A DNA stretch of 64,000 nucleotides from Saprospiraceae bacterium (GTDB lineage Bacteria > Bacteroidota > Bacteroidia > Chitinophagales > Saprospiraceae). This document shows positions 518-41,692 of the stretch, piece after piece. The translations under genes were made by a program, and so were the position numbers. The first letter of the stretch is position 1. Each line of letters starts with the position of its first letter. The stretch covers positions 2,224 through 66,223 of the forward strand of contig JANQQI010000106.1 of NCBI GenBank assembly GCA_028285085.1, given 5' to 3'. Under the pieces are notes generated by a model that saw only the letters and a program-made list of their open reading frames with translations, was not told where the DNA came from and searched no databases.

Positions 518-530
518 CTGGAGCAATTCT

Positions 531-12975: not shown

Positions 12976-14493
12976 ATGAAAATTCCCACGGACAATTTGT
13001 ATCAACTTATCCAGGCCATGACGGCTTCGGAGAAGCGTTACTTTAAGCGGCATTATGCTTCTGAAAAGAGCATCACTACAGAATTATTCGATTTCATTAA
13101 CGGGATGAAAGCCTACGATGAAGAAGAAGTAAAGCTGAATTTTAGCAATTCTAAAGTGGCCAAAAACCTCAAAGTTTACAAAGTTCAGCTCACCGAACTA
13201 CTTCTGAAAAGTCTCACTTCTTATCACAATAAAAAAAGTATTCGGAGTAAAATTCGAATAGGTTTGGAAGAAGTAGAGTTGTTGATGTACAAACAACTTT
13301 ATACCCTCGCTGGTAGTCGCATTCGGAAGATCAAGGAGCTGTGCTTGAAATACGAAGAACTGGAATACATCTTTTCTGTCTTATTTTTTGAACTACTCCT
13401 CAACTCCTTTTTTGACGTTAAACTACAGACTTCAGAAAATCCTATCCTTGAGGAATTAGACCAGTATACGGATAAGATTAAGAATATCTATCGGTTAAAA
13501 AAGATCAACTTTGCCTTACACGATATTAGTAATAATAAGTTGACGCATCGACTAAGCCCTGAAGAAGCAGAGCGATTCAGCCAACAACTCGAAATCGAAG
13601 CGGCACGTATCCACGAAGATCCGATTTCTTTCAACGAGCATTTTTATCTGAATAGCTCCCTGTCACTCATCAACCAACTCTTCCACCAGGATCCAACGAA
13701 GGAATATCTTTTTAAGAAAAAGAATGTTGAGCTGTTCGAAGAGAATCCACATTTTATAGAAAATCACGGCAGCTTTTACTACGCTGCGCTCTACAACTAC
13801 CTCATCGCCTGCCGCAAATTGGGCAAAAAAGCCGCTTTTGCCGAAGGTATTCGCAAGATCAAAGAACTGGCGCGGCAGCAACCCTTACTGGATCGCAATC
13901 TCATCTTTGTCTATTATCTGGAGATCAAGGAGTATTTCCGCACCGGGCAGTTTGAGACGCTGATCGCTGAAATGGAGCCGGTCGTGACGCGTCACATCAA
14001 AAAATACGATCAAAATCAAGATAACTTACCCGCACTTTGCTTCATCTATTTCGCGATGGCCCACATGGTGCTCGAGCAGTCACAACGCGTACAGTTTTAT
14101 GTGCGTCGTCTGCAAGCGATGGGTAAACAGCTAAATACGAGCTACGCCTACTTCTTCAATATTTTTGAATTGATCAGTCACTACGAGACCAATGACTTTG
14201 GTATCGTTCAGAACTTGTTGACGAGTTTCCGGCGCAAAATTGATAAGACCAAATCGGCAGAGGTAACCTTCTACTTACAGTTTCTTGACTTTATGACCGA
14301 ACTGATTCAAGCCGCTGAAAATGAGCGAACTCTACAAGCAAAATCATTCAAGCAAAATATCGTTGTACCAGCAAATGATGGTGTCAGTAATCTTTCTGAA
14401 GCCTTTTTATTGAACGATTGGCTGCAAGCCATTGAAAAGAAATGCAGCTATACAAAATGGGTGAAATCGCAATTAGTCGATTCAGAAATGTGA
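12976..14493 (+). CDS. Hypothetical all-helical protein, 505 aa
   Basis: This long ATG-initiated ORF has an N-terminal 'MTASEKRYFKRHY' motif that I associate with an uncharacterised Bacteroidota helical-protein family. The rest looks TPR-like and helical. It is preceded by a 523-bp AT-rich non-coding region. Confidence 0.65.
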   Translation: MKIPTDNLYQLIQAMTASEKRYFKRHYASEKSITTELFDFINGMKAYDEEEVKLNFSNSKVAKNLKVYKVQLTELLLKSLTSYHNKKSIRSKIRIGLEEVELLMYKQLYTLAGSRIRKIKELCLKYEELEYIFSVLFFELLLNSFFDVKLQTSENPILEELDQYTDKIKNIYRLKKINFALHDISNNKLTHRLSPEEAERFSQQLEIEAARIHEDPISFNEHFYLNSSLSLINQLFHQDPTKEYLFKKKNVELFEENPHFIENHGSFYYAALYNYLIACRKLGKKAAFAEGIRKIKELARQQPLLDRNLIFVYYLEIKEYFRTGQFETLIAEMEPVVTRHIKKYDQNQDNLPALCFIYFAMAHMVLEQSQRVQFYVRRLQAMGKQLNTSYAYFFNIFELISHYETNDFGIVQNLLTSFRRKIDKTKSAEVTFYLQFLDFMTELIQAAENERTLQAKSFKQNIVVPANDGVSNLSEAFLLNDWLQAIEKKCSYTKWVKSQLVDSEM

Positions 14494-18356: not shown

Positions 18357-19415
18357 TTAGCGTGTACTGACCGTATCATCGAGACGGTGGGCCATACGTT
18401 GAATCGCATCAATGATATTGTCCAGCGCTGGAGGATAATCAACGTAGCGGACATTATTCTGGTCTTTGCCCCAGATGCTGATGGTCACGACCTTTTTGCG
18501 TGAGCCGTAGGCCACAGCCAGGCGGAGTGGGATTGGCGTTGGTTTATTCTGCTTACGCTTCTGGCAGGTGCTGGATTTGCAATCGTAGATGCGCTCGAAC
18601 TCAAAGAATTTCTGCGCGATAATATATTCGGCGAATTGCTCCAGCTCTTCGCGCGGGATATTTTTCTTGGTAATCGTAGAGCCGTTATTGAGGCTTTTGA
18701 ATTCCTTAATGAGGCGGCCGTCACTTTTGATATGAATATAATCTTTGAGGACTGGATCTAATCCACCGTAATAGCCGCCACCAATCAATTCGATGCTGAT
18801 GTATATTGGCTCTTCTTTGCTCTTTTTTTTCTTTTTTCGCTTGCGACGGCGCTTCTTTTTCTTCTTCTTGTTGAAGGCCAGCCAGCGTTTTTTATTACGC
18901 TTGGGATTGGCAGTTTCGACGATAACGTCGGGCAGTTCGTTGGCGGGTTTTACGAATGGTGCATCCTTGCTTTCGACCCTTACGAAGTGATATTGGTAGG
19001 TACCTTTACTATTCGGCTGGGTGAATTCGAGAATCAACCGGGATTTATTAATATCGGCTATTTCGAATTTATTGATATGTTTGAAACGATAAAAGAGTTC
19101 GCTACCGCTTAAACTCCAGGTACCTCGAGTCATCCGCCCATTGAGGTATTGACTGTAAGTATAGTCATATCGAAAGTGGAGATAATAATCGTAGTAATCT
19201 TCGGCTTGGTGAATAATGGTATTGGACTCCAAATGAATGGCGTAGGTATAGCGCCACTTGGTTTCAATAATGAGGCGTTCGTCTACTGCCGGATAGTTAG
19301 TTCCCCAGCCGATCGAATCGGTTTGTGCCTGGCTGCTAAAACTGATCAGCAATAGCATGAGCCGAGAGCCGAGATAGTGTAAGTTCCTCATGTTGATCAA
19401 ATCCAAAACCTTCAT
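18357..19415 (-). CDS. Hypothetical exported protein with an internal 30-aa Lys/Arg tract
   Basis: The N-terminus is signal-like ('LMLLLISFSSQAQ'). Two globular-looking halves are separated by 'PKRNKKRWLAFNKKKKKKRRRKRKKKKKSKEE'. Confidence 0.6.
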   Translation of the reverse strand: MKVLDLINMRNLHYLGSRLMLLLISFSSQAQTDSIGWGTNYPAVDERLIIETKWRYTYAIHLESNTIIHQAEDYYDYYLHFRYDYTYSQYLNGRMTRGTWSLSGSELFYRFKHINKFEIADINKSRLILEFTQPNSKGTYQYHFVRVESKDAPFVKPANELPDVIVETANPKRNKKRWLAFNKKKKKKRRRKRKKKKKSKEEPIYISIELIGGGYYGGLDPVLKDYIHIKSDGRLIKEFKSLNNGSTITKKNIPREELEQFAEYIIAQKFFEFERIYDCKSSTCQKRKQNKPTPIPLRLAVAYGSRKKVVTISIWGKDQNNVRYVDYPPALDNIIDAIQRMAHRLDDTVSTR

Positions 19416-19579: not shown

Positions 19580-21085
19580 TTAAAACTTAAAACCGATTGT
19601 CATCAAAATCCGATCGTTATCTACCGAATTATTGACGAGTTGTTGTTTACTCAAGTCGGCCGTTGCGTAGGGAATATATCCAGAATCTATGGTGGTACGG
19701 CGATAGGCCAGATCGATATAAAACGACTGTTCTCTAACGCCTATTCCCAAACTAAACGTTCGATTACTCAAATCATTATCAGCATAAGGTGTGCCAGTTA
19801 TCCCATATCCAGCTCGAAAACGTAATTTTCTGTAAGCATATTCTCCTCCTAAACGGATATTCACCGCAGAAGTGAACAAATCTTCAATTTCTTCATTCAG
19901 ATCGTCTTGATACACTTTGTCTTCGATATTGCTACTATTAGCCGTGAGATTGAAACTAGAAGCGCTATAATCTACCCATTCCACCTCAGCGGTCAAGAAG
20001 CCTCTCCGTTGAATAATAATACCAAGGCTACCTTGGTAGCGCCATGGGTTACGAAAACGATACTCAAATGTGCCTTCAGGAGATTCATCACTAAACAATT
20101 GCGAGCCTCCCGCTTGTGTCGTAAAACCATAATCCATTGAGGTAGAAAAATTATCGGTCAAACTAAACGCTGTGGGCGTATGTACCGCGAGTCCCATACG
20201 GACCATTTGGTTGAAACGATAAATCATTCCCAGCTTGAGGTTAATCCCAATCCCGGAGGTCGTCAAATCCTCCCGGAATTCCAACTCATCAAAGAAATCA
20301 ATTTCATCGTCCTCATCCGTTTCACGGTATACCTTTTCTTCGCGGAAATTGATAAATGGAATGCCCAGGGTTGCTCCGATCATTAACTTTTCTTCGTAGT
20401 TGCCCGCGAAGGTGAAAATGAGTTCATTTATAGCGCCGGAGGTTCTGACATCTTGTTCTTTTTGGACCAATGGGTTTCCCTCAAAGTCATTCCCCCAGAA
20501 GTAGATATTATCGTTGGGGATGTCGTCCAAATCGAAGATCGCACCAGTATTGAAAGCCAGGCCAGCTTCGAAGGCGTCCAAATCTTCGGGGGCTAGGCCG
20601 TTACCATTGGGATCATTAGCCAGCTCCGCAAAGCGATCAGCATATGAGCCTGCAGATTTGCCAGAGTAATAAAAATGCTGATTGAAGTTAGCGACCTGAT
20701 TCATCCCGATGCCTACATTAAAGGTCCGCCAGCGGGAGGCAATCGGGCGTGTTGCCATCACAATTCCAACATTACCGAAGGTAAAACGATTGCGGCTTTC
20801 ATTGAAGGAGGAGGCATTATCACCTTCCAGCGTAGAATTCGTTTGTGCGGTGAAAAAGCCCGGCGTAAACATAAATTCGGAACGACGAAAAGTCGCTAAG
20901 CCTGCAGGATTACTACTCAGTACCGAAAAGTCAGCCCCGAGAGCCCCCAGCCCTCCACCGACACCCGCTGCTCGAGCGGTACTGTTGACTTCCAGCAAAG
21001 AATACCGAAGGGCATCTGCACTGGTCTGTGCCATAGTGGCTATTGAAAACAGGCTGAGCAAACAGCCTAAAATGTATTGTCTCAT
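19580..21085 (-). CDS. Outer-membrane beta-barrel protein (FadL/OmpP1-like family)
   Basis: A signal peptide is followed by 'SADALRYS...ARAAGVGGGLGALGADFSVLSSNPAGLA', a motif typical of Bacteroidota FadL-like barrels. The sequence has an alternating beta pattern and ends in '...ILMTIGFKF' with a terminal aromatic residue. Confidence 0.65.
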   Translation of the reverse strand: MRQYILGCLLSLFSIATMAQTSADALRYSLLEVNSTARAAGVGGGLGALGADFSVLSSNPAGLATFRRSEFMFTPGFFTAQTNSTLEGDNASSFNESRNRFTFGNVGIVMATRPIASRWRTFNVGIGMNQVANFNQHFYYSGKSAGSYADRFAELANDPNGNGLAPEDLDAFEAGLAFNTGAIFDLDDIPNDNIYFWGNDFEGNPLVQKEQDVRTSGAINELIFTFAGNYEEKLMIGATLGIPFINFREEKVYRETDEDDEIDFFDELEFREDLTTSGIGINLKLGMIYRFNQMVRMGLAVHTPTAFSLTDNFSTSMDYGFTTQAGGSQLFSDESPEGTFEYRFRNPWRYQGSLGIIIQRRGFLTAEVEWVDYSASSFNLTANSSNIEDKVYQDDLNEEIEDLFTSAVNIRLGGEYAYRKLRFRAGYGITGTPYADNDLSNRTFSLGIGVREQSFYIDLAYRRTTIDSGYIPYATADLSKQQLVNNSVDNDRILMTIGFKF

Positions 21086-21202
21086 AAACTATGATGGGTT
21101 AGGAAGATTCAAGAAATAGCTCCGCCGAGCGAACTCACCCTCAAAGGTAATACGCAATAAGACATTTTACGACAGGTTGAAAGGAATTGCGACAGGCGGT
21201 AT

Positions 21203-21243
21203 AAAAAAGTGGGTGGACATTAGTTCTACCAGCCCACCCACTT
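21203..21243 (-). terminator. Rho-independent terminator after the low-complexity gene
   Basis: The 10-bp stem pairs AAGTGGGTGG (21207-21216) with CCACCCACTT (21234-21243). On the minus strand a T6 run follows it (A-run 21203-21208 on plus). Confidence 0.65.
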
Positions 21244-21271
21244 TTCATTTATATATCAATGTGGTTTTCGA

Positions 21272-22519
21272 TTACCGTGGTCCGCGTCGGCTAGAGCGAC
21301 TGCTGCGGCTACTACTTCCGCTGGAGCGAGAGCGGCTACTGCTGCGCGTACTGCTTCCGCTGGAGCGGGAACGACTGCTACTGCGTGTGCTGCTACCGCG
21401 ACTGCGGTTACTTCGGCTGCTGCTGCGTGTACTGCTGCGGCTGCGGTTTGAACGACCACTATCGTAGCTACGGCTACGGTTGCTGCGACTTGGCTTAGTT
21501 GATGAGCCACGTCGGCTGCTATTGCGATCGATATCACGTGATCTGCTGTTGCTATTGCGGCGTGCATCTCTTGTGCGCGTATTACGTTTAGTTTTGTCAA
21601 CATCGGTACGCGTGGAACGATTACGATCAACGGTAGATTGACGTGTAGTCGTTTCTCGTGTGCGAGTAGAACGATCTGCATCGTAAACATCACGAGCGAC
21701 ACGTGTCTCTTTAGTCTGCTCACGAGTCGGACTAGTACGCCGTACTGATGAGCCATCTACCTTCGAGCGTGTTACGTCGCGAGGAGATTGTGTATTGAGT
21801 GCCCGTTGACGTGGTGAAGTATTCGCAGTGGTTCCTGTACCTCGTCGGCGCGACCCATAGTAGATCTCCGTATCGTTGGAGCCATAAGTGGTATTGGTAA
21901 AGAAATAAGGATTATTCCAGGACGGTGGGCAGTAAGCATTGTAGCCGCCGAAGCCTCCGCCAAATCCAGCACCACCAAATCCGGGACCGTAGCCGAAGTT
22001 GTTGTAACCAAATGGATCATTGAATCCACCACCGAAGTAATTATTGGTGATGAAGACATTGTTGTTGCCGTAGAATCCGCCACCGAAACCATTCCATCTG
22101 TTCCAGCGATTCCAACGGTTCCATCTGTTCCAACGATTCCATCTGTTCCAGCGATTGAAACCCCAAGAGTTGTAAATAAAGACATTTGCTCCGGGTGTAA
22201 AGAATGGATCGTAATAGGCGGCACTAACATAAACCGGATCAAAGAAACCAAATCCATAGTAGGGACGGTGAAAACGACGGATACGAGACGTGTAATAGTA
22301 GTCATAATCATCATCATCTACTTCGTAGCTGTTGCTGTATTCGTACTCATCGTCGTCGTAGCCATATTCGTCGTCGTCATAAGAGTCGGACGAACCGTAG
22401 TAGTAGTCGCTATCCGTATCGGGATTGTAGTACAAATCATCGTACTGGGCTTGTGCCGTCATCCCGAACGCCATCACAAAGAGGGCGACTAAAAGGCTAG
22501 AAACATTATATCTTTTCAT
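21272..22519 (-). CDS. Secreted low-complexity protein (Asp/Tyr block, NRW repeat, Gly/aromatic block, Arg/Ser/Thr tail)
   Basis: The signal peptide is 'MKRYNVSSLLVALFVMAFGMTAQAQ'. An open 415-codon frame persists through several low-complexity blocks. Codon usage within the repeats varies synonymously, which argues for real coding. Confidence 0.7.
   Translation of the reverse strand: MKRYNVSSLLVALFVMAFGMTAQAQYDDLYYNPDTDSDYYYGSSDSYDDDEYGYDDDEYEYSNSYEVDDDDYDYYYTSRIRRFHRPYYGFGFFDPVYVSAAYYDPFFTPGANVFIYNSWGFNRWNRWNRWNRWNRWNRWNRWNGFGGGFYGNNNVFITNNYFGGGFNDPFGYNNFGYGPGFGGAGFGGGFGGYNAYCPPSWNNPYFFTNTTYGSNDTEIYYGSRRRGTGTTANTSPRQRALNTQSPRDVTRSKVDGSSVRRTSPTREQTKETRVARDVYDADRSTRTRETTTRQSTVDRNRSTRTDVDKTKRNTRTRDARRNSNSRSRDIDRNSSRRGSSTKPSRSNRSRSYDSGRSNRSRSSTRSSSRSNRSRGSSTRSSSRSRSSGSSTRSSSRSRSSGSSSRSSRSSRRGPR
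21296..21470 (-). repeat. Imperfect 39-bp tandem repeats encoding the Ser/Arg tail (unit about GSSTRSSSRSRSS)
   Basis: 'cttccgctggagcg..gcggctactgctgcgcgtactg' starts at 21316 and recurs at 21355, giving a 39-bp period. Degenerate copies flank both occurrences. Confidence 0.7.
22094..22156 (-). repeat. Seven tandem 9-bp units encoding (Asn-Arg-Trp)x7
   Basis: On the plus strand the units read cca-tct-gtt / cca-gcg-att / cca-acg-gtt / cca-tct-gtt / cca-acg-att / cca-tct-gtt / cca-gcg-att. On the minus strand these are AAY-(CGN/AGA)-TGG codons. Confidence 0.9.
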
Positions 22520-22817
22520 AAGCAGGAATTTGAAACGTAATTACTGTGACTCTCTTACAAGTTACTATTGCGTAAGTTATTACTTTTAGCGTTCACTTTT
22601 AGTTAATAATGTATTAAAAGTCAGATTTGTTGACCCATATTTGTGTTAAACCTCTCTAAATGTCTTCATTCTTCTGACTAAATTTTCCTCATGTCGTCAC
22701 TTCTGTCGACTTTAAAGGCTTGTTAAAGTATTTTCGGATGCTTAACACTAGCAATAACTTTATAGGGCAAAAGCGTTGCCGAGTGGAATTTTTATCCCCA
22801 CTTTTTTATAAAAAATT

Positions 22818-26224: not shown

Positions 26225-27025
26225 ATGAAACTAAATTTACTCCTCCTGTTACTCATTTTTTCATCACCTCTTTTTTCCCAAGATTTTAATCTACTCTACG
26301 ATGATGCTCAGGGCGATCCCTCTGTAAACGGTATTGCCGACATTAAATCTGTGTCTTATGCTATCGACGAAGCTGCGGATAGCATATGGTTTAAAGTCGA
26401 ATTTTATAATAGTATCGCTGGTGATCTTGGGATCGTCTATGGGATTGATACGGATTTGACTCCAGGCAATGGTCTGGAGTGGAACAGCAGTAACAATTCA
26501 AGCTTGAAACCAGAAGTTGTCTTCACTGTTAATCGCAATTTCATTGCCCCGGAGACGATCTATGGTTTTTCAAATATCACGCTGGACTATACTTCTTACG
26601 AAGGCGAAACGGACAGTGTAATGATTACCAACTTGACCCTTTCTCAGTTAGATGAAGATGGCAAATTTAACTTTGTCCTGGGCACGAGTGGGTTCGATGC
26701 GGATGTCAATAACCGAACAATTTTTGATGATGCTCCGGAGTCCACTTTCCTCACGGTTGATGTCACTACCTCCGTGGAGGATATTAATGGCTTGATGGAT
26801 ACCCCTAAGTTTTATCCTAACCCTGGCCGTAATCAAGTTGAATTGACACAACTACCAAATTCTTTACAGCTGATCTGCTATGATCAATGGGGGCGGGAGT
26901 GGCAAAAGCTAAGTATAAGCACTACCACTTTTACTCTCGATACTTCTTCTTGGCCAGAGGGGATGTATTATTTTAAAATTATAAGTGATGGCCAATCGAA
27001 CGTGGAAAGCTGGATAAAACAATAG
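26225..27025 (+). CDS. Secreted hypothetical protein with T9SS C-terminal sorting domain
   Basis: The signal peptide is 'MKLNLLLLLLIFSSPLFSQ'. The C-terminus reads 'KFYPNPGRNQVELTQ...GMYYFKIISDG'. Confidence 0.7.
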   Translation: MKLNLLLLLLIFSSPLFSQDFNLLYDDAQGDPSVNGIADIKSVSYAIDEAADSIWFKVEFYNSIAGDLGIVYGIDTDLTPGNGLEWNSSNNSSLKPEVVFTVNRNFIAPETIYGFSNITLDYTSYEGETDSVMITNLTLSQLDEDGKFNFVLGTSGFDADVNNRTIFDDAPESTFLTVDVTTSVEDINGLMDTPKFYPNPGRNQVELTQLPNSLQLICYDQWGREWQKLSISTTTFTLDTSSWPEGMYYFKIISDGQSNVESWIKQ

Positions 27026-29369: not shown

Positions 29370-29960
29370 ATGCGCTACTTCAAGTTGTACAAACCATTTG
29401 GGATGCTGAGTCAGTTTAGTCGAGAGATGCCAGAACATCGAACTTTAGCGGATCTAGACATATTCCCGTCTGAGGTTTATCCGATTGGACGATTGGACAA
29501 AGACAGCGAGGGGTTGTTGCTACTGACGGATGATAAGCAATTGAATCATCGTCTGCTCGATCCTAAATTTCAGCATCCACGCACCTATTGGGTACAGGTG
29601 GAAGGCTTGCCCGCAGTATCTGCGCTAGCTGAACTAAGAGCTGGTGTTGATATTCGGATTAACAAGAAAGTGCATCATACCTTGCCGGCGCAAGTGCAAT
29701 TGTTAGAGGAGGTACCTGATTTACCGGATCGCGATCCACCAATAAGATTTAGAGCTAATATTCCTACGCAGTGGTTAGAAATTACCTTGACGGAGGGCAA
29801 AAACCGACAAGTGCGACGGATGTGTGCCAAGGTGGGTTTTCCGGTACTGCGCTTGGTACGCAGCAGCATAGTTGGCTTGAAATTGGGACCATTAGACCCT
29901 GGTCAAGTGGAGGAATTGGACGCAAAAACGCTTTACCGATTATTAGAGATACCGCGCTAG
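29370..29960 (+). CDS. Pseudouridine synthase, RsuA/RluE family (no S4 domain)
   Basis: It has 'YFKLYKPFGMLSQF', the catalytic 'GRLDKDSEGLLLLTDD' and 'EGKNRQVRRM'. Confidence 0.9.
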   Translation: MRYFKLYKPFGMLSQFSREMPEHRTLADLDIFPSEVYPIGRLDKDSEGLLLLTDDKQLNHRLLDPKFQHPRTYWVQVEGLPAVSALAELRAGVDIRINKKVHHTLPAQVQLLEEVPDLPDRDPPIRFRANIPTQWLEITLTEGKNRQVRRMCAKVGFPVLRLVRSSIVGLKLGPLDPGQVEELDAKTLYRLLEIPR

Positions 29961-31234
29961 TTGCTACTTGACCCCATGAAAGCAAGGGCAAAAGAGACGA
30001 CAGCTATGATTAGCCCATACATAAAAACGCCGTAGCAGATACGAAGGAATTTGTATTTCTTCGCGAGAACGATGCCCAGATAATATAAATCTCGCGTCAT
30101 GGAGCTGTATAGGAAGTCCGCATCTTTGATCATTTCTGTCATTCCCCAATTGAAATCATCCAGGCTCATATTATAGAAATTACCGAAAAAAAGCAGATTG
30201 GACCGCTTTTGCTCGATATCTTCTCGGGTAAATTTTCCTTCGGTCACCTTAGGACGAGTTGACAGTGTAGCAAACACAATCGCGAGTAAACAAACCCCCA
30301 GTAGAATAATCGTTGGAATTATAAGTTTAGGATTATCTTCGAATCGGGGCACCAAGGTGGAGATAGTGATCGAAATAATGATGGCGTTGATACTCAACAT
30401 AATGTTCGCCTTGTTATCGGCGATGGAGCTCAGATTAACGTGCGTCCGATAAGTGGTACGGTACATTGTTTCAACACCACGCCCCAGACTCAATTGCTTG
30501 AGTTGTTGCTCAGTCGTCTGCGCAGGATTGCCTTTTTTCTTTCCTTTCTTCTTTCCTTTTTTTGGAAGGCGTGCCATCTCATCGACAGTCATTACCTCCT
30601 GAGGATTCAAGCGCATTTTCTGCTTTTGTAGCTGCCGAACGTGTTTTTGTTTACGCTTACCGTAGAGATCTTGCCCGACCGAAGTATGAAAACGATGATT
30701 GCTGATAAATTCGAGTTCAAATTCTACCCACTCTCGCTCGGTCATCAACAAATCACGCGTAAGCGTCAATTCCTGCCGAACGCGACTACAGCGATCCCAG
30801 TAGACCTTCTGCCCCAAATGACTCAAATCGGCATCACAAAGAATGCGATGCAGTAAATTTTGAGGATCATGGGGCATTTGGGTGGCTAGAATACAGGCTT
30901 CGATTTCGACTAGGCGTTCTTCGGGATAATTGCGGCCGCTGAGATAAGCCCGCGCGTAGCGCACGCCGCGCTCTTCGTGATTCTCAGGGCCCTTATCATA
31001 GCCTGTATCATGAAACCAAGCGGCAAGTTGAATGATTTCCAATTCTTCGGGACTGAGCTCAAAATGACTGGAGATTTCGCGGGTAGCGGCAACGACATCG
31101 AGTGTATGTTGCACATCATGGTAGGCATATTCCTTGGGCACCTGCTCAGAAATGAAATTGGTGACGTAGGCTTCTACTTCAAGTAAAATATTGTTTTCTG
31201 CCTCCATGGCGCTGCTGCTTTTAAGAAAAGTCAA
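29957..31234 (-). CDS. HD-domain phosphohydrolase fused to a Pycsar-effector-like (DUF5706-like) transmembrane domain
   Basis: The N-terminus carries the H..HD..D signature ('YHDVQHTLDV', 'AAWFHDTGY', 'CDADLSHLG'). A Lys/Gly linker 'KKGKKKGKKKG' follows. The C-terminus has 'SSIADNKANIMLSINAIII' followed by 3 predicted TM helices and 'NLLFFGNF'. Confidence 0.7.
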   Translation of the reverse strand: MTFLKSSSAMEAENNILLEVEAYVTNFISEQVPKEYAYHDVQHTLDVVAATREISSHFELSPEELEIIQLAAWFHDTGYDKGPENHEERGVRYARAYLSGRNYPEERLVEIEACILATQMPHDPQNLLHRILCDADLSHLGQKVYWDRCSRVRQELTLTRDLLMTEREWVEFELEFISNHRFHTSVGQDLYGKRKQKHVRQLQKQKMRLNPQEVMTVDEMARLPKKGKKKGKKKGNPAQTTEQQLKQLSLGRGVETMYRTTYRTHVNLSSIADNKANIMLSINAIIISITISTLVPRFEDNPKLIIPTIILLGVCLLAIVFATLSTRPKVTEGKFTREDIEQKRSNLLFFGNFYNMSLDDFNWGMTEMIKDADFLYSSMTRDLYYLGIVLAKKYKFLRICYGVFMYGLIIAVVSFALAFMGSSSN

Positions 31235-37963: not shown

Positions 37964-40900
37964 ATGAGTAACTCAACCCTAACCCTCTTGCGCTTTGTAT
38001 TGCTACTGGTACTCGGTAGTAGTGTAGCGTCAACGAGCTTTGCTCAATGTATTGGCGGCACTACCGTGTCGACCTTCAGCGGAGCGACCACCACTTACAC
38101 TTGCGTTGGCGACGGTGTCGACGACGTTATCCAATTTAAACCCAGCAGTTTTGCAACTGCTTATGCATTTATCGTTACAGATGCCGAAGACAACATTCTG
38201 GCCGTCGTCACTGGCAATTCTGTTAATTTCGAAGGCGCTGGTGAAGGTGTTTGCCGCGTTTGGGGAATGTCTTATGCCGGCGTGGTAAATAATCCCGTGG
38301 GCGAAAATATTCAAACGGCCGTCCTAACCGATTTTTGCTATATCCTATCTGACAACTTCGTTGAAGTCATCCGCGATAGTGGTGATGATGTAGACGGTGG
38401 TATGGTAGCGACGCCTTCGGGAGCAACAATGGTCTACACTTGTCCTGAGGATAATGTGGCGGACATTGTGACTTTCACCAACACGGGTAGTCCGAATGCC
38501 AATTATGCTTACGTGGTTACGGATGATCAAAACAACATTTTGGGCTTGCCTCCAGGAAATAGCCTTGATTTTGATGGCGCTGGCGACGGTGTTTGTCGTG
38601 TTTGGGGTTTGTCCTACGTCGGTAATATCATTGCAGAACCAGGCGACAATGCTGCTGAAGTGCAACTAGCGGAAGGCTGCTTCCGATTGTCAGAAAACTT
38701 CATTACCGTTATTCGTTCTAAGCCTGATGGTGGCACGGTAGCAATGCCTAATGGCAATACCGAGCGTGAAGTTTGTGCAGGAGATGGTCAGCCTGATGTG
38801 GTGATGTTTACCCATGATACCGAATCTCTGGCTCAGTACACTTACGTGATTACGGATGACCAAAACAACATTTTGGGCTTGCCTCCGGGTAATAGTCTTG
38901 ATTTTGATGGTGCTGGTCCTGGTATCTGTCGTGTTTGGGGCTTGTCTTACACCGGCAACATTACCGCTGCGGTAGGAGATAATGCAGCTATGATTGACCT
39001 GACTGACGATTGCTTCGACCTGTCTGACAACTTTATCACCATTATTCGAACCGGTGTAGACGGCGGAACTGTAGCGATGCCTTCAGGAGCTACTATGCGA
39101 TACACTTGCCCCGGTGATGGTGAAGATGACATCATCACTTTTACGAATACAAGCACTAGCGATGCGAATTATGCATATGTAATTACGGATGATGAGAATA
39201 ACATTTTGGGTATTCCTCCGGGTAATAGCCAAAACTTTGAAGGTGCCGGTACCGGTGTTTGCCGCGTATGGGGCCTGTCCTATACTGGAAACATTACTGC
39301 CCAGCCCGGCGACAACGCGGCAGAAGTGGCTTTGAGTGACGAATGCTTCGTTCTATCTGAGAATTTCATCACCGTTATTCGTGATACACCCGATGGAGGT
39401 ACGGTAGCGATGCCTAATGGTAATACCGAACGCGAAACTTGTGCTGGTGACGGCGAAGCCGATGTCGTGATGTTTACCCACGATACGGAATCTCAGGCGA
39501 ACTACGCTTACGTGATTACAGATGATGAAAATAATATTTTGGGCCTACCTCCAGGCAATAGCTTGGATTTCGAAGGTGCTGGTGAAGGTATTTGCCGCGT
39601 ATGGGGTCTATCTTATACCGGAAGCATTACGGCACAAGTAGGCGATAACGCTGCACTAGTTGATTTAACAGACGATTGCTTTGACTTATCTGACAACTTT
39701 ATCACCATTATCCGTACGGGTGTTGACGGTGGAACCGTAGCGATGCCAAACGGAGAAACTGAGCGCGAGACCTGCGCTGGCGATGGAGTTGACGACATCG
39801 TCATGTTTACCCACGTTACAGGGGCAAGTGCGAACTACGCCTACGTGATTACGGATGATGAGAATAACATTTTGGGTATTCCTCCGGGTGATAGCCAAAA
39901 CTTTGAAGGTGCTGGTGAAGGTATCTGCCGTGTATGGGGTCTGTCGTACACTGGAAACATCACTGCTCAAGCGGGTGATAATGCGGCAATGGTTGACTTA
40001 ACCGATGGCTGCTTTGATTTATCCGATAACTTTATCACCATTATCCGTACGGGCGTTGACGGTGGCACGGTAGCAATGCCAAATGGAGAAACTGAGCGTG
40101 AGACCTGCGCTGGCGACGGAGTTGACGATATCGTCATGTTTACGCACGATACAGGATCCGGTGCGAACTATGCTTACGTGATTACCGATGATGAGAATAA
40201 CATTTTGGGTATTCCTCCTGGTGATAGCCAAAACTTCGAAGGCGCCGGCGAAGGTATCTGCCGAGTATGGGGTCTGTCGTACACTGGAAATATCACTGCT
40301 CAAGCGGGTGATAATGCCGCGATGGTTGCTTTGACGGACGGTTGCTTTGATTTATCTGACAACTTTATTACGATCAATCGCATCGGCGTTGACGGTGGCA
40401 CGGTAGCAATGCCAAATGGAGAGACGGAGCGCGAGACTTGTGCTGGCGACGGTATCGACGACATCGTCATGTTTACACACGATACAGGATCCGGTGCGAA
40501 CTACGCTTACGTGATTACGGATGATGAAAATAACATTTTGGGTATTCCTCCTGGTGATAGTCAAAACTTCGAAGGCGCCGGCGAAGGTGTTTGCCGAGTA
40601 TGGGGTCTGTCGTACACCGGAAACATCACTGCTCAAGCGGGCGACAATGCCGCGATGGTTGCTTTGACGGACGGTTGCTTTGACTTATCTGACAACTTTA
40701 TTACGATCAATCGCATTGGCGTTGACGGTGGCACGGTAGCGATGCCAAACGGAGAGACGGAGCGCGAGACTTGTGCTGGCGACGGTATCGACGACATCGT
40801 GATGTTCACCCACGACACAGGATCCAGTGCGAATTACGCTTACGTGATTACGGATGATGAGAATAACATTTTGGGTATTCCTCCTGGTGATAGCCAAAAC

Positions 40901-41692
40901 TTCGAAGGCGCCGGCGAAGGTATCTGCCGCGTATGGGGTCTGTCTTACACCGGAAGCATCATTGCTCAGGCGGGTGATAATGCGGCAATGGTTGACTTGA
41001 CCGATGGCTGCTTTGATCTATCTGACAACTTTATCACCATTATCCGTAATGGCGTTGACGGCGGAATGGTAGCGATGCCAAATACCAATACTGAGGTCAC
41101 TGTTTGCGCTGGCGACGGTGAAGATGATATCATCATGTTTACCAATGATAGCGAAAGTGGCGCGAGCTACGCTTATGTGATCACGGATGACGAAAATAAC
41201 ATCTTGGGTATTCCTCCAGGTAATAGCCAAAACTTCGAAGGTGCAGGTTCAGGTATCTGCCGCGTATGGGGTTTGTCTTACACTGGAAATATTACGGCCC
41301 AAGCCGGTGACAATGCTGCACAAGTGGCATTGACCGATGGTTGCTTCGCCCTGTCTGACAACTTTATTACCGTTAATCGTCTGAGTGGCGACGACTGCCC
41401 ATCCAACTTAACCGGAAATTTGCAGGGACAGATGGTAAATGGCTCAGTGGTACCAACACAAGTAGAGTTATATCCAAATCCAGTACAGCAAACGCTGCAT
41501 ATCCAATTGGAAAAAGTACATGAGACCAATGCCCAAATCGAAATTTTGGATATCTCCGGCCGCATCCTACAGCAAATTAACACTGCTGACCAAACCATCG
41601 AGGTGAACGTAAGTCAATATGACAGCGGTTTGTACCTCGTCCGTTTGATTGAAGCTGGCCAAGTGAGTAGCTATAAATTTTTGAAACAATAA
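37964..41692 (+). CDS. 1242-aa T9SS-secreted protein built of ten tandem 111-aa repeats
   Basis: A signal peptide is followed by 10 repeats of the consensus 'DGGTVAMPNGETERETCAGDG.DDIVMFTHDT...ANYAYVITDDENNILGIPPG.SQNFEGAGEGICRVWGLSYTGNITAQAGDNAA.V.LTDGCFDLSDNFITI.R'. The C-terminal CTD reads 'LYPNPVQQTLHIQL...GLYLVRLIEAG'. Confidence 0.85.
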   Translation: MSNSTLTLLRFVLLLVLGSSVASTSFAQCIGGTTVSTFSGATTTYTCVGDGVDDVIQFKPSSFATAYAFIVTDAEDNILAVVTGNSVNFEGAGEGVCRVWGMSYAGVVNNPVGENIQTAVLTDFCYILSDNFVEVIRDSGDDVDGGMVATPSGATMVYTCPEDNVADIVTFTNTGSPNANYAYVVTDDQNNILGLPPGNSLDFDGAGDGVCRVWGLSYVGNIIAEPGDNAAEVQLAEGCFRLSENFITVIRSKPDGGTVAMPNGNTEREVCAGDGQPDVVMFTHDTESLAQYTYVITDDQNNILGLPPGNSLDFDGAGPGICRVWGLSYTGNITAAVGDNAAMIDLTDDCFDLSDNFITIIRTGVDGGTVAMPSGATMRYTCPGDGEDDIITFTNTSTSDANYAYVITDDENNILGIPPGNSQNFEGAGTGVCRVWGLSYTGNITAQPGDNAAEVALSDECFVLSENFITVIRDTPDGGTVAMPNGNTERETCAGDGEADVVMFTHDTESQANYAYVITDDENNILGLPPGNSLDFEGAGEGICRVWGLSYTGSITAQVGDNAALVDLTDDCFDLSDNFITIIRTGVDGGTVAMPNGETERETCAGDGVDDIVMFTHVTGASANYAYVITDDENNILGIPPGDSQNFEGAGEGICRVWGLSYTGNITAQAGDNAAMVDLTDGCFDLSDNFITIIRTGVDGGTVAMPNGETERETCAGDGVDDIVMFTHDTGSGANYAYVITDDENNILGIPPGDSQNFEGAGEGICRVWGLSYTGNITAQAGDNAAMVALTDGCFDLSDNFITINRIGVDGGTVAMPNGETERETCAGDGIDDIVMFTHDTGSGANYAYVITDDENNILGIPPGDSQNFEGAGEGVCRVWGLSYTGNITAQAGDNAAMVALTDGCFDLSDNFITINRIGVDGGTVAMPNGETERETCAGDGIDDIVMFTHDTGSSANYAYVITDDENNILGIPPGDSQNFEGAGEGICRVWGLSYTGSIIAQAGDNAAMVDLTDGCFDLSDNFITIIRNGVDGGMVAMPNTNTEVTVCAGDGEDDIIMFTNDSESGASYAYVITDDENNILGIPPGNSQNFEGAGSGICRVWGLSYTGNITAQAGDNAAQVALTDGCFALSDNFITVNRLSGDDCPSNLTGNLQGQMVNGSVVPTQVELYPNPVQQTLHIQLEKVHETNAQIEILDISGRILQQINTADQTIEVNVSQYDSGLYLVRLIEAGQVSSYKFLKQ
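38048..41389 (+). repeat. In-frame tandem array of one 345-bp unit plus nine 333-bp units
   Basis: Repeat starts (the GAY GGY GG codons) were counted at 38393, 38726, 39059, 39392, 39725, 40058, 40391, 40724 and 41057, an exact 333-bp period. Copies 6-9 are roughly 90% or more identical at DNA level by eye. Confidence 0.9.

What the first reader, a model, noticed from the sequence alone, without database searches (positions are those of the whole stretch)
21272..22519. Secreted 'block polyampholyte' low-complexity protein resembling eukaryotic phase-separating proteins
After a clear signal peptide, the 415-aa product has no ordinary globular sequence. An extremely acidic Asp/Tyr/Glu block comes first ('YDDLYYNPDTDSDYYYGSSDSYDDDEYGYDDDEYEYSNSYEVDDDDYDYYY'). 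An aromatic segment and an (NRW)x7 array follow. Next is a Gly/Phe/Tyr/Asn block ('GFGGGFYGNNN..GPGFGGAGFGGGFGGYN'). The protein ends in a ~190-aa strongly basic Arg/Ser/Thr tail ('..SRSNRSRSSTRSSSRSNRSRGSSTRSSSRSRSS..RRGPR'). Oppositely charged termini flanking an FG/YG-like aromatic-glycine core is the grammar of coacervating or amyloid-like proteins, and of SR/RGG nucleic-acid binders. That is unusual for an exported bacterial protein. It might form a matrix, adhesive or mineral/polyanion-binding material (eDNA, polyphosphate or polysaccharide).
Basis: partly seen in the sequence, partly recalled or inferred. Interest (0 to 1): 0.65.

Follow-up and report, generated by a model that had tools for sequence, protein, structure and literature searches.

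The report
Disordered exported protein with dedicated barrel
This is a real, widely conserved but unstudied bacterial gene for an exported, entirely floppy protein with an acidic head, a sticky aromatic middle and a basic tail. It almost always sits directly upstream of its own outer-membrane barrel gene, so the pair probably forms a new kind of envelope or surface material system.

Summary
Window 21272..22519 (minus strand) encodes a 415-aa protein with these parts in order:
- a signal peptide
- an Asp/Tyr acidic block (net charge -21)
- a conserved aromatic core
- seven NRW repeats
- a Gly/Phe/Tyr/Asn block
- a 191-aa Arg/Ser/Thr tail (net charge +39)

It is not a chance ORF. A profile search finds 985 cluster representatives. 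At least 364 matching stretches occur in a one-genome-per-species collection, and all named ones are Saprospiraceae, Lewinellaceae or Haliscomenobacter-type Bacteroidota. All 79 complete related loci keep an intact ORF with the same block order and charge pattern. No curated family, solved structure or paper covers it. AlphaFold2 predicts disorder throughout.

- A FadL-family 14-strand outer-membrane barrel gene lies directly downstream in 75 of 80 loci, with one true exception.
- A sequence-conserved terminator hairpin separates the two genes.
- About 160 nt upstream is strongly conserved.

A single cysteine (YCPPSW) and short invariant motifs stand out from the variable low-complexity sequence.

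My best reading, at moderate confidence, is an abundant disordered envelope or surface protein that is exported or anchored by its dedicated barrel. Phase separation and polyanion binding remain plausible but untested.

The parts
22520..22680 (-). Conserved upstream DNA (promoter, operator or 5' leader) of the disordered-protein gene. It includes TTTAAC boxes, the element (GG)C(A/T)AAAAGTAATAA(AT)T about 66 nt before the ATG, and the palindromes GTAAT..ATTAC and GTAATTAC.
   Evidence: CAAAAGTAATAA lies at about -64 to -71 (mostly -66 to -69) from the called ATG in about 40 of 75 loci. The 37-locus alignment A5 shows it. The 19-mer GGCACAAAAGTAATAAATT occurs once per locus in 50 of 80 loci, always just upstream of this gene. 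The 12-mer CAAAAGTAATAA, allowing one mismatch, occurs once in the 64-kb window, at this position. No consensus RNA structure and no Rfam match.
22448..22519 (-). Signal peptide (aa 1-24, MKRYNVSSLLVALFVMAFGMTAQA). The inferred signal peptidase I site is AQA|Q, so the mature protein would begin with Gln.
   Evidence: Translation. Helix 6-21 has pLDDT above 80 in the AlphaFold2 model. Gln25 is invariant in 109 sequences. There is no Cys at the cleavage site, so it is not a lipoprotein.
22292..22447 (-). Acidic Asp/Tyr head (aa 25-76). It begins with the invariant N-terminal motif QYDDLYYNPDTD (22412..22447).
   Evidence: Net charge -21. Family-wide composition is D 25% and Y 24.5%. D27, D28, Y30 and P33 are invariant in the 25-sequence alignment; D27 and Y30 stay invariant and D28 and P33 are at least 90% conserved in the 109-sequence alignment.
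22169..22306 (-). Conserved aromatic and basic core (aa 72-117, YDYYYTSRIRRFHRPYYGFGFFDPVYVSAAYYDPFFTPGANVFIYN). It is the candidate docking or folding element.
   Evidence: It holds most of the invariant residues: Y76, R79, R82, F83, D94 and P95, plus nearly invariant Y72, S78, R81, R85, P86, G89, Y97, Y103, D104 and P105. It is the only segment on the 'folded' side of the charge-hydropathy plot.
22094..22156 (-). Array of seven NRW repeats (aa 122-142).
   Evidence: Tandem DNA repeat of period 9/18/27. NRWNRW-type repeats recur with variable copy number in homologues.
21935..22093 (-). Gly/Phe/Tyr/Asn low-complexity block (aa 143-195).
   Evidence: The family middle block is N 15%, G 14%, Y 13%, F 8.5%, W 7.7%, R 7.8%.
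21917..21934 (-). YCPPSW motif containing the only cysteine of the mature protein (Cys197).
   Evidence: 146 of 168 mature family members have exactly one Cys, nearly always in [YF]-C-P-P-[STA]-W. The partner barrel has no mature Cys in 67 of 74 cases.
21848..21862 (-). YYG(P/S)R motif at the start of the basic tail (aa 220-224).
   Evidence: R224 is invariant in the 25-sequence alignment and at least 90% conserved among 109 sequences; Y221 and G222 are nearly invariant in the smaller alignment.
21275..21847 (-). Basic Arg/Ser/Thr tail (aa 225-415). It contains 13-aa tandem repeats and ends in the conserved motif ..S(R/K)RG(G/P)(N/R).
   Evidence: Net charge +39. A 39-nt tandem repeat x2.6. 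Family tails are S 25.5%, R 17%, T 11%, K 1.7%, with lengths from about 34 to 300 aa (about 140-300 in full-length members). The C-terminal RRGG-type ending is present in nearly all 79 loci.
21199..21247 (-). Terminator-type hairpin between the two genes: AAAAGUGGGUGG..loop..CCACCCACUUUUUU.
   Evidence: Free energy -26 kcal/mol, z = -4.0. A hairpin followed by a T-run lies within 110 nt of the stop codon in 66 of 79 loci. GGGTGG-N(4-30)-CCACCC occurs once in the 64-kb window (0.05 expected) and once in 40 of the 43 loci that carry it; in 42 of those 43 a copy lies just after this gene. The stem-flanking base pairs co-vary.
19580..21085 (-). Partner gene: a 501-aa FadL/OmpP1/TodX-family outer-membrane beta-barrel with a conserved N-terminal hatch (invariant N59-P60-A61-G62).
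   Evidence: Pfam Toluene_X scores 35.1 bits against a cut-off of 29.7. The AlphaFold2 model has pLDDT 88.3. Best Foldseek matches are FadL 3pgs (E 3.5e-16) and BamG 9hiv_F (E 7.7e-16). It lies directly downstream on the same strand in 75 of 80 loci. Invariant residues are listed.

Best explanation
The locus is a two-gene envelope module specific to the Saprospiraceae/Lewinellaceae/Haliscomenobacter lineage of Bacteroidota.

Gene 1 encodes a Sec-exported, signal-peptidase-I-processed protein that is disordered along its whole length. It has an Asp/Tyr acidic head, an aromatic/Gly/Asn/Arg middle with one cysteine, and an Arg/Ser/Thr basic tail.

Gene 2, directly downstream, encodes a dedicated FadL-family 14-strand outer-membrane barrel.

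The most likely mechanism has three steps:
1. The disordered chain reaches the periplasm unfolded.
2. Its short invariant motifs are recognised by the barrel. These are the mature N-terminus QYDDLYYNPD, the YxYTSRIRRFHRPxYGFxYFDPVYVDxxYYDPF core, YCPPSW and YYGPR.
3. The barrel serves as the protein's outer-membrane export conduit, its anchor, or both.

The variable low-complexity blocks are then the working material. They would form a self-associating, charge-patterned, aromatic- and Arg-rich layer able to bind polyanions such as LPS, polysaccharide or DNA at the envelope or cell surface.

A conserved upstream region, and a conserved hairpin terminator between the genes, would make the disordered protein much more abundant than its barrel.

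Shown: the gene is real, the protein is predicted disordered, the architecture and motifs are conserved, the barrel has a FadL fold, the synteny is strict, and the non-coding flanks are conserved.

Inferred: physical interaction with the barrel, direction of transport, final location, stoichiometry and material properties.
For: Family and architecture:
- 270 or more homologues, and 985 cluster representatives.
- Conserved block order, motifs and charge pattern.
- Intact ORFs in all 79 complete loci.

Disorder:
- AlphaFold2 with 109 sequences gives pLDDT 48.6 and no secondary structure after the signal peptide.
- Only residues 72-117 fall on the folded side of the charge-hydropathy plot.

Partner:
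- The barrel gene lies directly downstream on the same strand in 75 of 80 loci. Four of the five absences are contig ends, and one (L068) is a true exception.
- Other neighbours are not retained across the order; the window shares only the two cassette genes with most related loci, although proS lies upstream and divergent in 65 of them.
- The barrel has a FadL fold.

Expression pattern:
- A sequence-conserved terminator hairpin follows gene 1.
- No conserved element lies between the hairpin and the barrel ATG, and often only 20-60 nt separate them.
- About 160 nt upstream of gene 1 is conserved.
- Gene 1 ranks 3rd of 41 window ORFs for C-ending two-fold codons, whereas the barrel ranks low.

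Precedents:
- FadL-type barrels in Bacteroidota act as anchors for partner proteins (BamG-BamH, PMC12611786).
- Adjacent PorP-like barrels anchor their cognate cargo (PMC9143113).
- The amyloid exporter FapF was predicted to be FadL/TodX-like and exports an unfolded substrate (PMC5137466, PMC5557850).
- The mature N-terminus of CsgA is the secretion signal for CsgG (my own knowledge).
Against: - There is no direct evidence of interaction, export or location.
- FadL barrels are plugged by a hatch, and here the hatch is the most conserved part of the barrel. That fits a small-molecule transporter as well as it fits a polypeptide conduit.
- One genome fragment (L068) has the gene without an adjacent barrel.
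- The high-expression inference rests on indirect signs: conserved flanks and a modest codon bias.
- Conserved adjacency could in principle reflect co-regulation without physical contact.
Confidence: 0.4

Rival explanations
1. The protein is a periplasmic partner of the barrel. It stays in the periplasm and binds the periplasmic face or lumen of the barrel through its conserved motifs. It would act as a regulator, plug or tether. For example, it could link the outer membrane to peptidoglycan or to another envelope protein through its long Arg/Ser tail and its single cysteine. Bacteroidota lack Lpp.
For: - It has only a Sec signal and no recognisable outer-membrane secretion domain.
- A single positionally conserved Cys occurs in 146 of 168 members, while the barrel has none. 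This suggests an intermolecular disulfide formed in the periplasm. Disulfide links between outer-membrane proteins and periplasmic components were recently shown in Bacteroidota (PMC12635249).
- A periplasmic subunit loop entering a barrel has a precedent in BamP-BamA (PMC12611786).
- A conserved C-terminal RRGG motif could be a docking end.
- Conserved flanks suggest abundance comparable to that of major envelope proteins.
Against: - There is no peptidoglycan-binding or other folded domain.
- Tail length varies from about 140 to 300 aa in full-length members, which is odd for a spacer of fixed length.
- The rapidly evolving tandem repeats resemble surface-exposed material.
- Nothing shows which side of the membrane the protein is on.
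Confidence: 0.25
2. The barrel is an ordinary FadL-type importer of a hydrophobic compound. The disordered aromatic-rich protein is an accessory factor, for example for substrate capture or emulsifying, or for conditioning the surface. It might also be merely a co-regulated neighbour with an unrelated envelope role.
For: - The barrel passes the Pfam FadL threshold.
- It keeps an invariant NPAG motif at residues 59-62, matching the NPA motif known in the FadL hatch, and a highly conserved N-terminal segment.
- Its fold matches FadL, TodX and TbuX transporters best.
- About 30% of the head and middle blocks is aromatic, which could bind hydrophobic or aromatic ligands.
Against: - No canonical FadL system is known, to my knowledge, to need a protein partner.
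- The pairing is nearly absolute (75 of 76 informative loci), and other neighbours are not retained across the order.
- No lipid or aromatic catabolic genes are conserved nearby.
- The barrel scores closer to the PorV/PorQ family than to any equivalog, but below every cut-off.
Confidence: 0.17
3. The protein is a pro-form polycation. The Arg-rich tail and the Trp/Arg repeats would be a membrane-active or nucleic-acid-condensing agent, for antagonism or predation. The acidic head would keep it inert until it is exported through the barrel and processed.
For: - Oppositely charged head (-21) and tail (+39) sit on one chain, and this is conserved.
- (NRW)n resembles synthetic Arg/Trp antimicrobial repeats (my own knowledge, a lead only).
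- Some Saprospiraceae are predatory (my own knowledge).
Against: - There is no protease or immunity gene in the conserved cassette.
- In many homologues the net charge is close to zero (median +9, range -6 to +41).
- The tail contains far more Ser/Thr than typical antimicrobial polycations.
- The family occurs across many MAG lineages for which no predatory lifestyle is known; I did not assess lifestyles.
Confidence: 0.05
4. The ORF is spurious, a by-product of repetitive DNA.
For: The sequence is low-complexity and repetitive. Long overlapping ORFs occur in other frames. The exact protein is not on record as a called gene, and a public assembly breaks inside it.
Against: There are hundreds of homologues with conserved motifs, a signal peptide, a conserved C-terminus and intact reading frames despite only 30-60% identity.
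Confidence: 0.01

Closest known systems
Functional-amyloid export pairs: curli CsgA/CsgG and Pseudomonas FapC/FapF
   Same: An unfolded, repeat-rich, Gly/Asn-rich secreted protein is encoded next to a dedicated outer-membrane channel. FapF was predicted to be FadL/TodX-like (PMC5137466). The substrate's mature N-terminus carries the targeting information in CsgA (my own knowledge), and here the mature N-terminus is invariant.
   Different: There is no sequence or Pfam relationship to CsgA, FapC, CsgG or FapF. There are no accessory genes of the CsgB/E/F or FapA/B/D/E type. The protein has oppositely charged terminal blocks and is predicted disordered rather than forming a beta-solenoid. Amyloid formation is untested.
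FadL-superfamily barrels of Bacteroidota that hold partner proteins: BamG-BamH, PorV-PorU, PorQ-PorZ, and the PorP/SprF barrels with type-B CTD cargo encoded next to them
   Same: A barrel of the FadL type acts together with a cognate non-barrel protein. In the PorP/SprF case the two genes are adjacent (PMC12611786, PMC9143113). The window barrel gives weak hits to the PorV/PorQ and BamG models and a strong structural match to BamG.
   Different: The barrel scores below every NCBIfam cut-off for PorV, PorQ and BamG and has no PorP_SprF hit. The partner has no type A or type B CTD and is not a lipoprotein. The partner is wholly disordered, whereas the known partners are folded.
FadL/TodX hydrophobic-compound transporters
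   Same: The barrel matches Pfam PF03349 above threshold, keeps the invariant NPA(G) motif and has a 14-strand-type fold.
   Different: It is about 50-70 residues longer, with only 10-14% identity to solved members. It is strictly paired with a disordered protein gene, which is not a feature of known FadL loci (my own knowledge).
Secreted or surface bacterial low-complexity charged domains that phase-separate, for example the anionic domain of LbpB
   Same: An exported bacterial low-complexity charged region is proposed to act through complex coacervation with oppositely charged partners (PMC11022072). LbpB also depends on a dedicated outer-membrane barrel, Slam (my own knowledge).
   Different: LbpB is a folded lipoprotein with an inserted anionic region. 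Here the whole protein is low-complexity and carries both charges on one chain. The two are not homologous.
Eukaryotic FG/RGG/SR low-complexity proteins and mussel foot protein 3
   Same: They share compositional grammar: Arg plus aromatic 'stickers', Gly/Asn/Ser 'spacers' and blocky charge.
   Different: The likeness is compositional only. The PDB profile search hits only Ser/Arg tails. The Jensen-Shannon divergence of the middle block to Mfp-3 (0.223) is no smaller than its divergence to an ordinary barrel protein (0.224).

Membership tests
FadL/OmpP1/TodX outer-membrane transporters (Pfam PF03349), tested for the partner barrel 19580..21085 | Sequence match above the curated threshold | tested here: met
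   Toluene_X scores 35.1 bits against a gathering score of 29.7, E 6.7e-9.
FadL/OmpP1/TodX outer-membrane transporters (Pfam PF03349), tested for the partner barrel 19580..21085 | 14-strand beta-barrel fold with an N-terminal hatch | tested here: met
   The AlphaFold2 model has pLDDT 88.3 and pTM 0.83. Short N-terminal helices are followed by about 14 long strands. The top 26 Foldseek matches are FadL, TodX, TbuX, CymD and BamG, with E from 3.5e-16 to 4e-11. The strand count was read from the DSSP string, not from coordinates.
FadL/OmpP1/TodX outer-membrane transporters (Pfam PF03349), tested for the partner barrel 19580..21085 | NPA motif in the hatch | tested here: met
   N59, P60, A61 and G62 are invariant in 60 orthologues. 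That the NPA motif is a FadL hallmark comes from my own knowledge and from the mutant names among the PDB matches.
FadL/OmpP1/TodX outer-membrane transporters (Pfam PF03349), tested for the partner barrel 19580..21085 | Transport of hydrophobic small molecules | not testable with these tools
   Needs uptake assays.
PorV / PorQ / BamG (NCBIfam equivalogs), tested for the partner barrel | Score above the curated cut-off of the family model | tested here: not met
   PorV_fam 47.6 against 90, BamG 31.5 against 250, PorQ 26.8 against 220, PorV 19.6 against 250.
Type IX secretion cargo, tested for the disordered protein | C-terminal sorting domain, type A (Por_Secre_tail) or type B | tested here: not met
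   There is no Pfam or NCBIfam hit in the query, and no Pfam hit in 109 family members. The same Pfam search does detect Por_Secre_tail in two other window proteins. The C-terminus is Arg/Ser low-complexity sequence ending in RRGPR.
Bacterial lipoprotein, tested for the disordered protein | Lipobox with Cys at +1 of the signal peptide cleavage site | tested here: not met
   The signal peptide ends in AQA|QYDD. The only Cys is residue 197.
Curli or Fap functional amyloid subunits | Curlin or FapC repeat units recognisable by profile, with a CsgG or FapF exporter and accessory genes nearby | tested here: not met
   No Pfam hit in the query or in 109 homologues. The only conserved neighbour is the FadL-type barrel.
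Curli or Fap functional amyloid subunits | Forms amyloid fibres outside the cell | not testable with these tools
   Needs thioflavin T or Congo red assays, electron microscopy and fractionation.
Phase-separating block polyampholytes (a functional class, not a homologous family) | Intrinsic disorder together with segregated opposite charges | tested here: met
   AlphaFold2 predicts disorder. The charge-hydropathy plot places the mature protein on the disordered side. SCD is -10.6 against +7.1 +/- 0.95 in shuffles, and the family median z is -7.
Phase-separating block polyampholytes (a functional class, not a homologous family) | Demonstrated coacervation or condensate formation | not testable with these tools
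   Needs purified protein, with turbidity and microscopy measured against salt, pH and added polyanions.

The most novel reading that the evidence does not exclude
This is a previously unrecognised outer-membrane export route in Bacteroidota. A FadL-derived barrel would translocate and/or hold a fully disordered, self-coacervating block-polyampholyte, which would form an abundant adhesive or matrix coat on Saprospiraceae-type cells. It would be the functional counterpart of curli and Fap, built from different parts, and a natural bacterial example of an extracellular condensate-forming protein.
Probability: 0.2. Interest if true: 0.85.

Novelty: new variant of a known kind. Interest (0 to 1): 0.62.

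Why it matters
Saprospiraceae and their relatives are abundant in activated sludge, in marine particles and on algal surfaces, where attachment and filament formation matter. This module is present in hundreds of their species but has no curated Pfam or NCBIfam family, no solved structure, and no mention of its signature motifs in the searched paper library.

If the barrel exports or anchors the protein, three things follow:
- It would add a new job to the FadL superfamily, alongside the recently found roles of PorV and BamG.
- It would be a new way of moving an unfolded protein across, or fixing it to, the outer membrane.
- It would give a tractable bacterial model for charge-patterned, aromatic-rich disordered proteins acting outside the cytoplasm.

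The strongly conserved promoter region and terminator also offer a ready handle on regulation in a group with almost no genetics.

Tried and rejected
- **Curated families:** Pfam and NCBIfam searches of the protein gave no hit. A Pfam scan of 109 homologues gave two isolated weak matches (PCF11_RFEG_rpt, E 1.3e-4; DUF4459, E 8.9e-3), one member each.
- **Solved structures:** only Ser/Arg-tail compositional matches for the protein, and nothing by sequence for the barrel.
- **Rfam:** nothing on the gene and its flanks.
- **RNA structure of the conserved upstream region:** RNAalifold predicted zero pairs, so I treat it as DNA-level conservation.
- **Promoters:** the sigma-70-type scan was at background level. 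The Bacteroidota -7 motif TAnnTTTG is at most weakly enriched upstream of either gene.
- **Terminator scan:** the simple scan missed the main hairpin because its loop exceeds 8 nt. I found it by eye and by folding.
- **Mussel foot protein 3:** I recalled a likeness from memory, took the sequence from PMC9287526 and compared compositions. It was no closer than an ordinary protein, so I rejected it as a specific resemblance.
- **O-glycosylation sequon D[ST][AILMTV]:** it appears depleted (0.08 per protein against 1.14 in shuffles). The whole-chain shuffle mixes the blocks, so I draw no conclusion.
- **Exact-sequence look-up of the protein:** it is not on record. The barrel look-up gave one Logan contig that breaks inside the disordered-protein gene.
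- **Literature:** searches for the signature motifs and for Saprospiraceae proteomics found nothing relevant.
- **Complex model:** no model of the two proteins together could be made.
Full report

Yes. An ATG-to-stop ORF of 415 aa lies at 21272..22519 on the minus strand. Every quoted segment was checked by translating sub-ranges:

| Segment | Residues | Notes |
|---|---|---|
| Signal peptide | 1-24 | MKRYNVSSLLVALFVMAFGMTAQA |
| Asp/Tyr/Glu block | 25-76 | net charge -21 |
| Aromatic core | 72-117 | conserved |
| NRW repeats | 122-142 | exactly seven |
| Gly/Phe/Tyr/Asn block | 143-195 | |
| Arg/Ser/Thr tail | 225-415 | net charge +39 |

The protein as a whole is 16% Ser, 15% Arg, 9% Gly, 9% Asn and 8% Tyr, with only 6 Lys against 62 Arg. 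The NRW array and part of the tail are tandem repeats at the DNA level, with periods of 9/18/27 nt and 39 nt.

Charge segregation is far beyond what the composition gives. The sequence charge decoration (SCD) is -10.6, against +7.1 +/- 0.95 in 200 shuffles. Kappa is 0.28 against 0.17 +/- 0.02. The other long ORFs that overlap the gene in other frames are by-products of its repetitive codon content.

**2. Is it a gene?**

The word-indexed protein search found at least 270 homologues. The best had E 3e-73. Lengths were 350-530 aa. All were labelled hypothetical, and the named ones came from Saprospiraceae or Bacteroidota MAGs.

An exhaustive profile search with the non-tail half (alignment A4) against 1.84 billion cluster representatives gave 985 hits at E<=1e-3, 438 at <=1e-10 and 123 at <=1e-30. 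The match was essentially always at the protein's N-terminus.

The 80 best are Saprospiraceae, Lewinellaceae, Haliscomenobacter, Phaeodactylibacter, Lewinella, Neolewinella and Flavilitoribacter, plus unclassified Bacteroidota and 'Chitinophagales' MAGs.

All 79 complete loci carry an intact ORF of 352-563 aa.

No curated family covers it:
- No Pfam or NCBIfam family covers the query; across 109 homologues Pfam gave only two isolated weak matches, one member each.
- No solved structure is related. The only matches are Ser/Arg-tail compositional ones.
- The signature strings NRWNRWNRW and SRIRRFHRP occur in no paper of the library.

**3. Anatomy of the family**

Alignments A1 and A2 show a fixed order of parts:
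1. A signal peptide ending in ..AQ.
2. The mature N-terminus Q-Y-D-D-(L/I)-Y-Y-(N/D)-P-D. Gln25, D27 and Y30 are invariant among 109 sequences, and D28 and P33 are at least 90% conserved (invariant in the 25-sequence alignment).
3. A variable acidic Asp/Tyr block. Family composition is D 25% and Y 24.5%.
4. The best-conserved segment, YDYYYTSRIRRFHRPxYGFxYFDPVYVDxxYYDPF..PG.TVLIYD.
5. NRW/NRF/SWN repeats in variable number.
6. A variable Gly/Asn/Trp/Phe/Tyr block.
7. The motif Y-C-P-P-(S/T/A)-W.
8. The motif Y-Y-G-P-R.
9. A tail of about 140-300 aa in full-length members, with S 25.5%, R 17%, T 11%, P 8% and K under 2%. Its repeats differ between species.
10. A conserved C-terminal ending of the ..SRRGGN type.

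The charge pattern is conserved. Head charge runs from -8 to -22, middle from +2 to +8 and tail from +3 to +45 (+8 to +45 in full-length members). The median SCD z-score is -7 across 83 members.

Exactly one cysteine is present in 146 of 168 mature proteins, nearly always in the YCPP[STA]W motif.

AlphaFold2 with the 109-sequence alignment predicts no structure beyond the signal-peptide helix. Mean pLDDT is 48.6, and 299 of 415 residues are below 50. On the charge-hydropathy plot only residues 72-117 fall on the folded side.

The picture is a disordered chain carrying a few short, strongly constrained linear motifs. Between them lie blocks whose composition is conserved but whose sequence is not.

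The signal peptide has a canonical n-region (KR), an h-region and an AXA site, followed by the invariant Gln. Gln at +1 is the rule for signal-peptidase-I substrates in Bacteroidota (my own knowledge, Bochtler et al. 2018). It is not a lipoprotein, because there is no Cys at the cleavage site.

**4.

Directly downstream on the same strand, 19580..21085 encodes a 501-aa protein with its own signal peptide.
- It matches Pfam Toluene_X (the FadL/OmpP1/TodX family) above threshold, at 35.1 against 29.7 bits.
- It gives sub-threshold hits to PorV/PorQ-family and BamG models.
- Its AlphaFold2 model is confident (pLDDT 88.3, pTM 0.83). It is an all-beta barrel of about 14 long strands behind a short helical N-terminal segment.
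- Its best structural matches are E. coli FadL (E 3.5e-16), BamG from the Bacteroides BAM complex (E 7.7e-16), and TodX, TbuX and CymD.
- The FadL hallmark NPA(G) motif is invariant (N59-P60-A61-G62), and the N-terminal hatch region is the most conserved part.

A tblastn search with all window proteins against the 80 related loci found the barrel in 75 of them. It is always immediately downstream of the disordered-protein gene, on the same strand, with a median gap of 151 nt. Four of the five absences are contig ends (L021, L022, L047, L075). One, L068, is a real exception, where an esterase-like gene follows.

No other neighbour is kept throughout.
- In 65 related loci a prolyl-tRNA synthetase gene lies upstream and divergent. 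In the window the upstream genes are instead a phosphotransferase and an acyl-CoA dehydrogenase.
- The 352-aa protein downstream of the barrel in the window recurs in only 13 loci.

The conserved unit is therefore exactly two genes. The barrel evolves more slowly (about 40-57% identity) than the disordered protein (about 30-47% over matched parts).

**5. Non-coding flanks are unusually conserved**

*Terminator hairpin.* Thirty-two nucleotides after the stop codon lies a strong hairpin followed by a U-run, AAAAGUGGGUGG...CCACCCACUUUUUU. Its free energy is -26 kcal/mol, z = -4.0, and none of 200 shuffles folds as well.
- A hairpin followed by a T-run lies within 110 nt of the stop in 66 of 79 loci.
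- The stem sequence itself is conserved. GGGTGG-N(4-30)-CCACCC occurs once in the 64-kb window, where 0.05 is expected. It occurs once in 40 of the 43 loci that carry it (three have a second copy elsewhere). In 42 of those 43 loci a copy lies just after this gene; in L070 the only copy lies elsewhere.
- With one mismatch allowed, 60 of 81 sequences have it.
- Loop sequence and length vary (10-25 nt between the two hexamers). The two base pairs flanking the core co-vary (TA, AT, GC, CG). Rare core changes are compensated, as in GGGCGG/CCGCCC, GGGTGA/TCACCC and GAGTGG/CCACTC.
- Between the hairpin and the barrel start codon there is no conserved element, and often only 20-60 nt.

I infer that the barrel is transcribed mainly by read-through, so the disordered protein is made in excess. 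This is an inference.

*Upstream region.* About 160 nt upstream of the start codon is conserved in primary sequence across the order. It contains TTTAAC boxes, a 14-bp palindrome TTAACAnnTGTTAA in many loci, the element GGCACAAAAGTAATAAATT about 66 nt before the ATG, and TGTAAGAGAGTCACnGTAATTACA.
- The 19-mer occurs once per locus in 50 of 80 loci, and only at this gene.
- RNAalifold finds no consensus structure and Rfam finds nothing. I therefore read this as promoter or operator DNA, or as an unstructured leader.

*Codon usage.* The gene ranks 3rd of 41 window ORFs for C-ending two-fold codons (0.49 against a median of about 0.37). The barrel is low (0.33). This is weak support for high expression of the first gene.

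Strong dedicated promoter and leader regions together with a strong terminator are typical of very abundant envelope proteins such as OmpA, Lpp and S-layer proteins (my own knowledge).

**6. How it most likely works**

The evidence supports a cognate pair of a disordered, exported protein and a dedicated FadL-type outer-membrane barrel.

Precedents exist for FadL-superfamily or neighbouring barrels working with partner proteins:
- BamG anchors the surface lipoprotein BamH (PMC12611786).
- PorP/SprF-like barrels bind the type-B cargo encoded next to them (PMC9143113).
- The amyloid exporter FapF, predicted to be FadL/TodX-like, passes an unfolded substrate (PMC5137466, PMC5557850).
- In curli, the mature N-terminus of CsgA is the signal recognised by the outer-membrane channel (my own knowledge).

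Here the mature N-terminus is the most sharply defined motif after the core.

I therefore favour the following mechanism, at confidence 0.4. The chain enters the periplasm unfolded, and the barrel recognises its short motifs. The barrel then exports it, anchors it, or does both. The low-complexity blocks form a self-associating, polyanion-binding layer at the envelope or cell surface. Supporting features are the acidic head set against the basic tail, about 30% aromatic residues in the head and middle, and an Arg to Lys ratio of about 10 to 1.

The single conserved cysteine suggests a covalent dimer or a link to another envelope protein.

**7. Rivals**

- **Periplasmic partner, tether or plug (0.25).** The protein has only a Sec signal. 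The cysteine points to periplasmic disulfide chemistry of the kind just described for SprF/PorG-GldK (PMC12635249). A periplasmic loop entering a barrel has a precedent in BamP.
- **Ordinary FadL-type importer with an accessory or merely co-regulated neighbour (0.17).** The highly conserved hatch and NPA motif fit a transporter.
- **Pro-form polycation neutralised by its acidic head (0.05).**
- **Spurious ORF (0.01).** Refuted by the conservation data.

**8. Comparison with the known**

[quoted passage not shown] It is not PorV, PorQ or BamG, because it scores below every cut-off.

The disordered protein belongs to no described family.
- It is not a type IX cargo. It has no CTD, while the same Pfam search detects CTDs in two other proteins of the window.
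- It is not a lipoprotein.
- It is not related to curli or Fap subunits.
- Its likeness to eukaryotic FG, RGG or SR proteins is compositional.
- A remembered likeness to mussel foot protein 3 did not survive a composition test.
- A secreted bacterial low-complexity anionic domain that coacervates with cationic peptides is known, in LbpB (PMC11022072). It is therefore not unprecedented for an exported bacterial protein to use this grammar. A whole protein built as a two-charge block polyampholyte with its own barrel is, however, undescribed as far as I could find.

**9. Verdict**

The key context was missed: the barrel partner, the motifs, the cysteine and the conserved flanks.

This is an uncharacterised, order-wide two-gene envelope module. 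I rate it a new variant of a known kind (a dedicated outer-membrane barrel with a cognate unfolded partner). The real possibility of a new export route is stated under the novel case. Interest is 0.62.

Noticed in passing
window 21199..21247 (minus strand), and the equivalent position in L001-L080: The terminator hairpin after the disordered-protein gene is conserved in sequence (GGGTGG..CCACCC core, A-run before, T-run after) across genera whose proteins are only 30-60% identical. It occurs only once per 16-64 kb, so it is not a generic genome-wide terminator or repeat. Why the stem sequence is kept, and not merely the pairing, is unexplained. Possibilities are very strong selection on termination or mRNA stability, or a protein-binding site.
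   Followed up: partly
window 22520..22680 (minus strand); alignment A5: About 160 nt upstream of the gene is conserved in primary sequence across the order. It has TTTAAC boxes, a TTAACAnnTGTTAA palindrome in many loci, GGCACAAAAGTAATAAATT at about -66, and GTAATTAC palindromes. It has no predicted RNA structure, no Rfam match and no clear sigma-70 or Bacteroidota -7 motif. It may define an unknown promoter type or a regulator binding site.
   Followed up: partly
window 18357..19415 (minus strand): A 352-aa protein with a signal peptide and an extreme Lys/Arg linker (KRNKKRWLAFNKKKKKKRRRKRKKKKKSKEE) lies just downstream of the barrel gene. It has no Pfam or NCBIfam family. It recurs at this position in 13 related loci at 57-79% identity in 12 of them (30% in L037), which in the closest relatives is better conserved than the cassette genes.
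   Followed up: partly
window 29957..31234 (minus strand): A 425-aa protein combines an HD domain with a PycTM (Pycsar effector transmembrane) domain. It may be a cyclic-nucleotide-triggered defence effector or a relative.
   Followed up: no
window 26225..27025 (+) and 37964..41692 (+): Two proteins carry the type IX secretion C-terminal sorting domain (Por_Secre_tail). The organism therefore has type IX cargo, whereas the disordered protein lacks such a domain.
   Followed up: no
L003-L080, about 1.5-3.7 kb upstream of the cassette: In 65 related loci a prolyl-tRNA synthetase gene lies upstream and divergent from the cassette. The window has a phosphotransferase (APH) gene and an acyl-CoA dehydrogenase gene there instead, so the cassette has been relocated in this lineage.
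   Followed up: partly
L068 4131..5333: This is the only informative locus where the disordered-protein gene is not followed by the barrel gene. An esterase-like lipoprotein gene follows instead. Whether that genome has the barrel elsewhere is unknown.
   Followed up: partly
L081 (Logan SRR20820731 contig) 2..1126: The only public contig found that carries the window's barrel protein breaks inside the disordered-protein gene, and the exact 415-aa product is not on record as a called gene. Repetitive genes of this kind are probably under-assembled and under-annotated in metagenomes.
   Followed up: no
window 12976..14493 (+) and 44078..46021 (+): Two sizeable ORFs (505 aa and 647 aa) have no Pfam match.
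   Followed up: no
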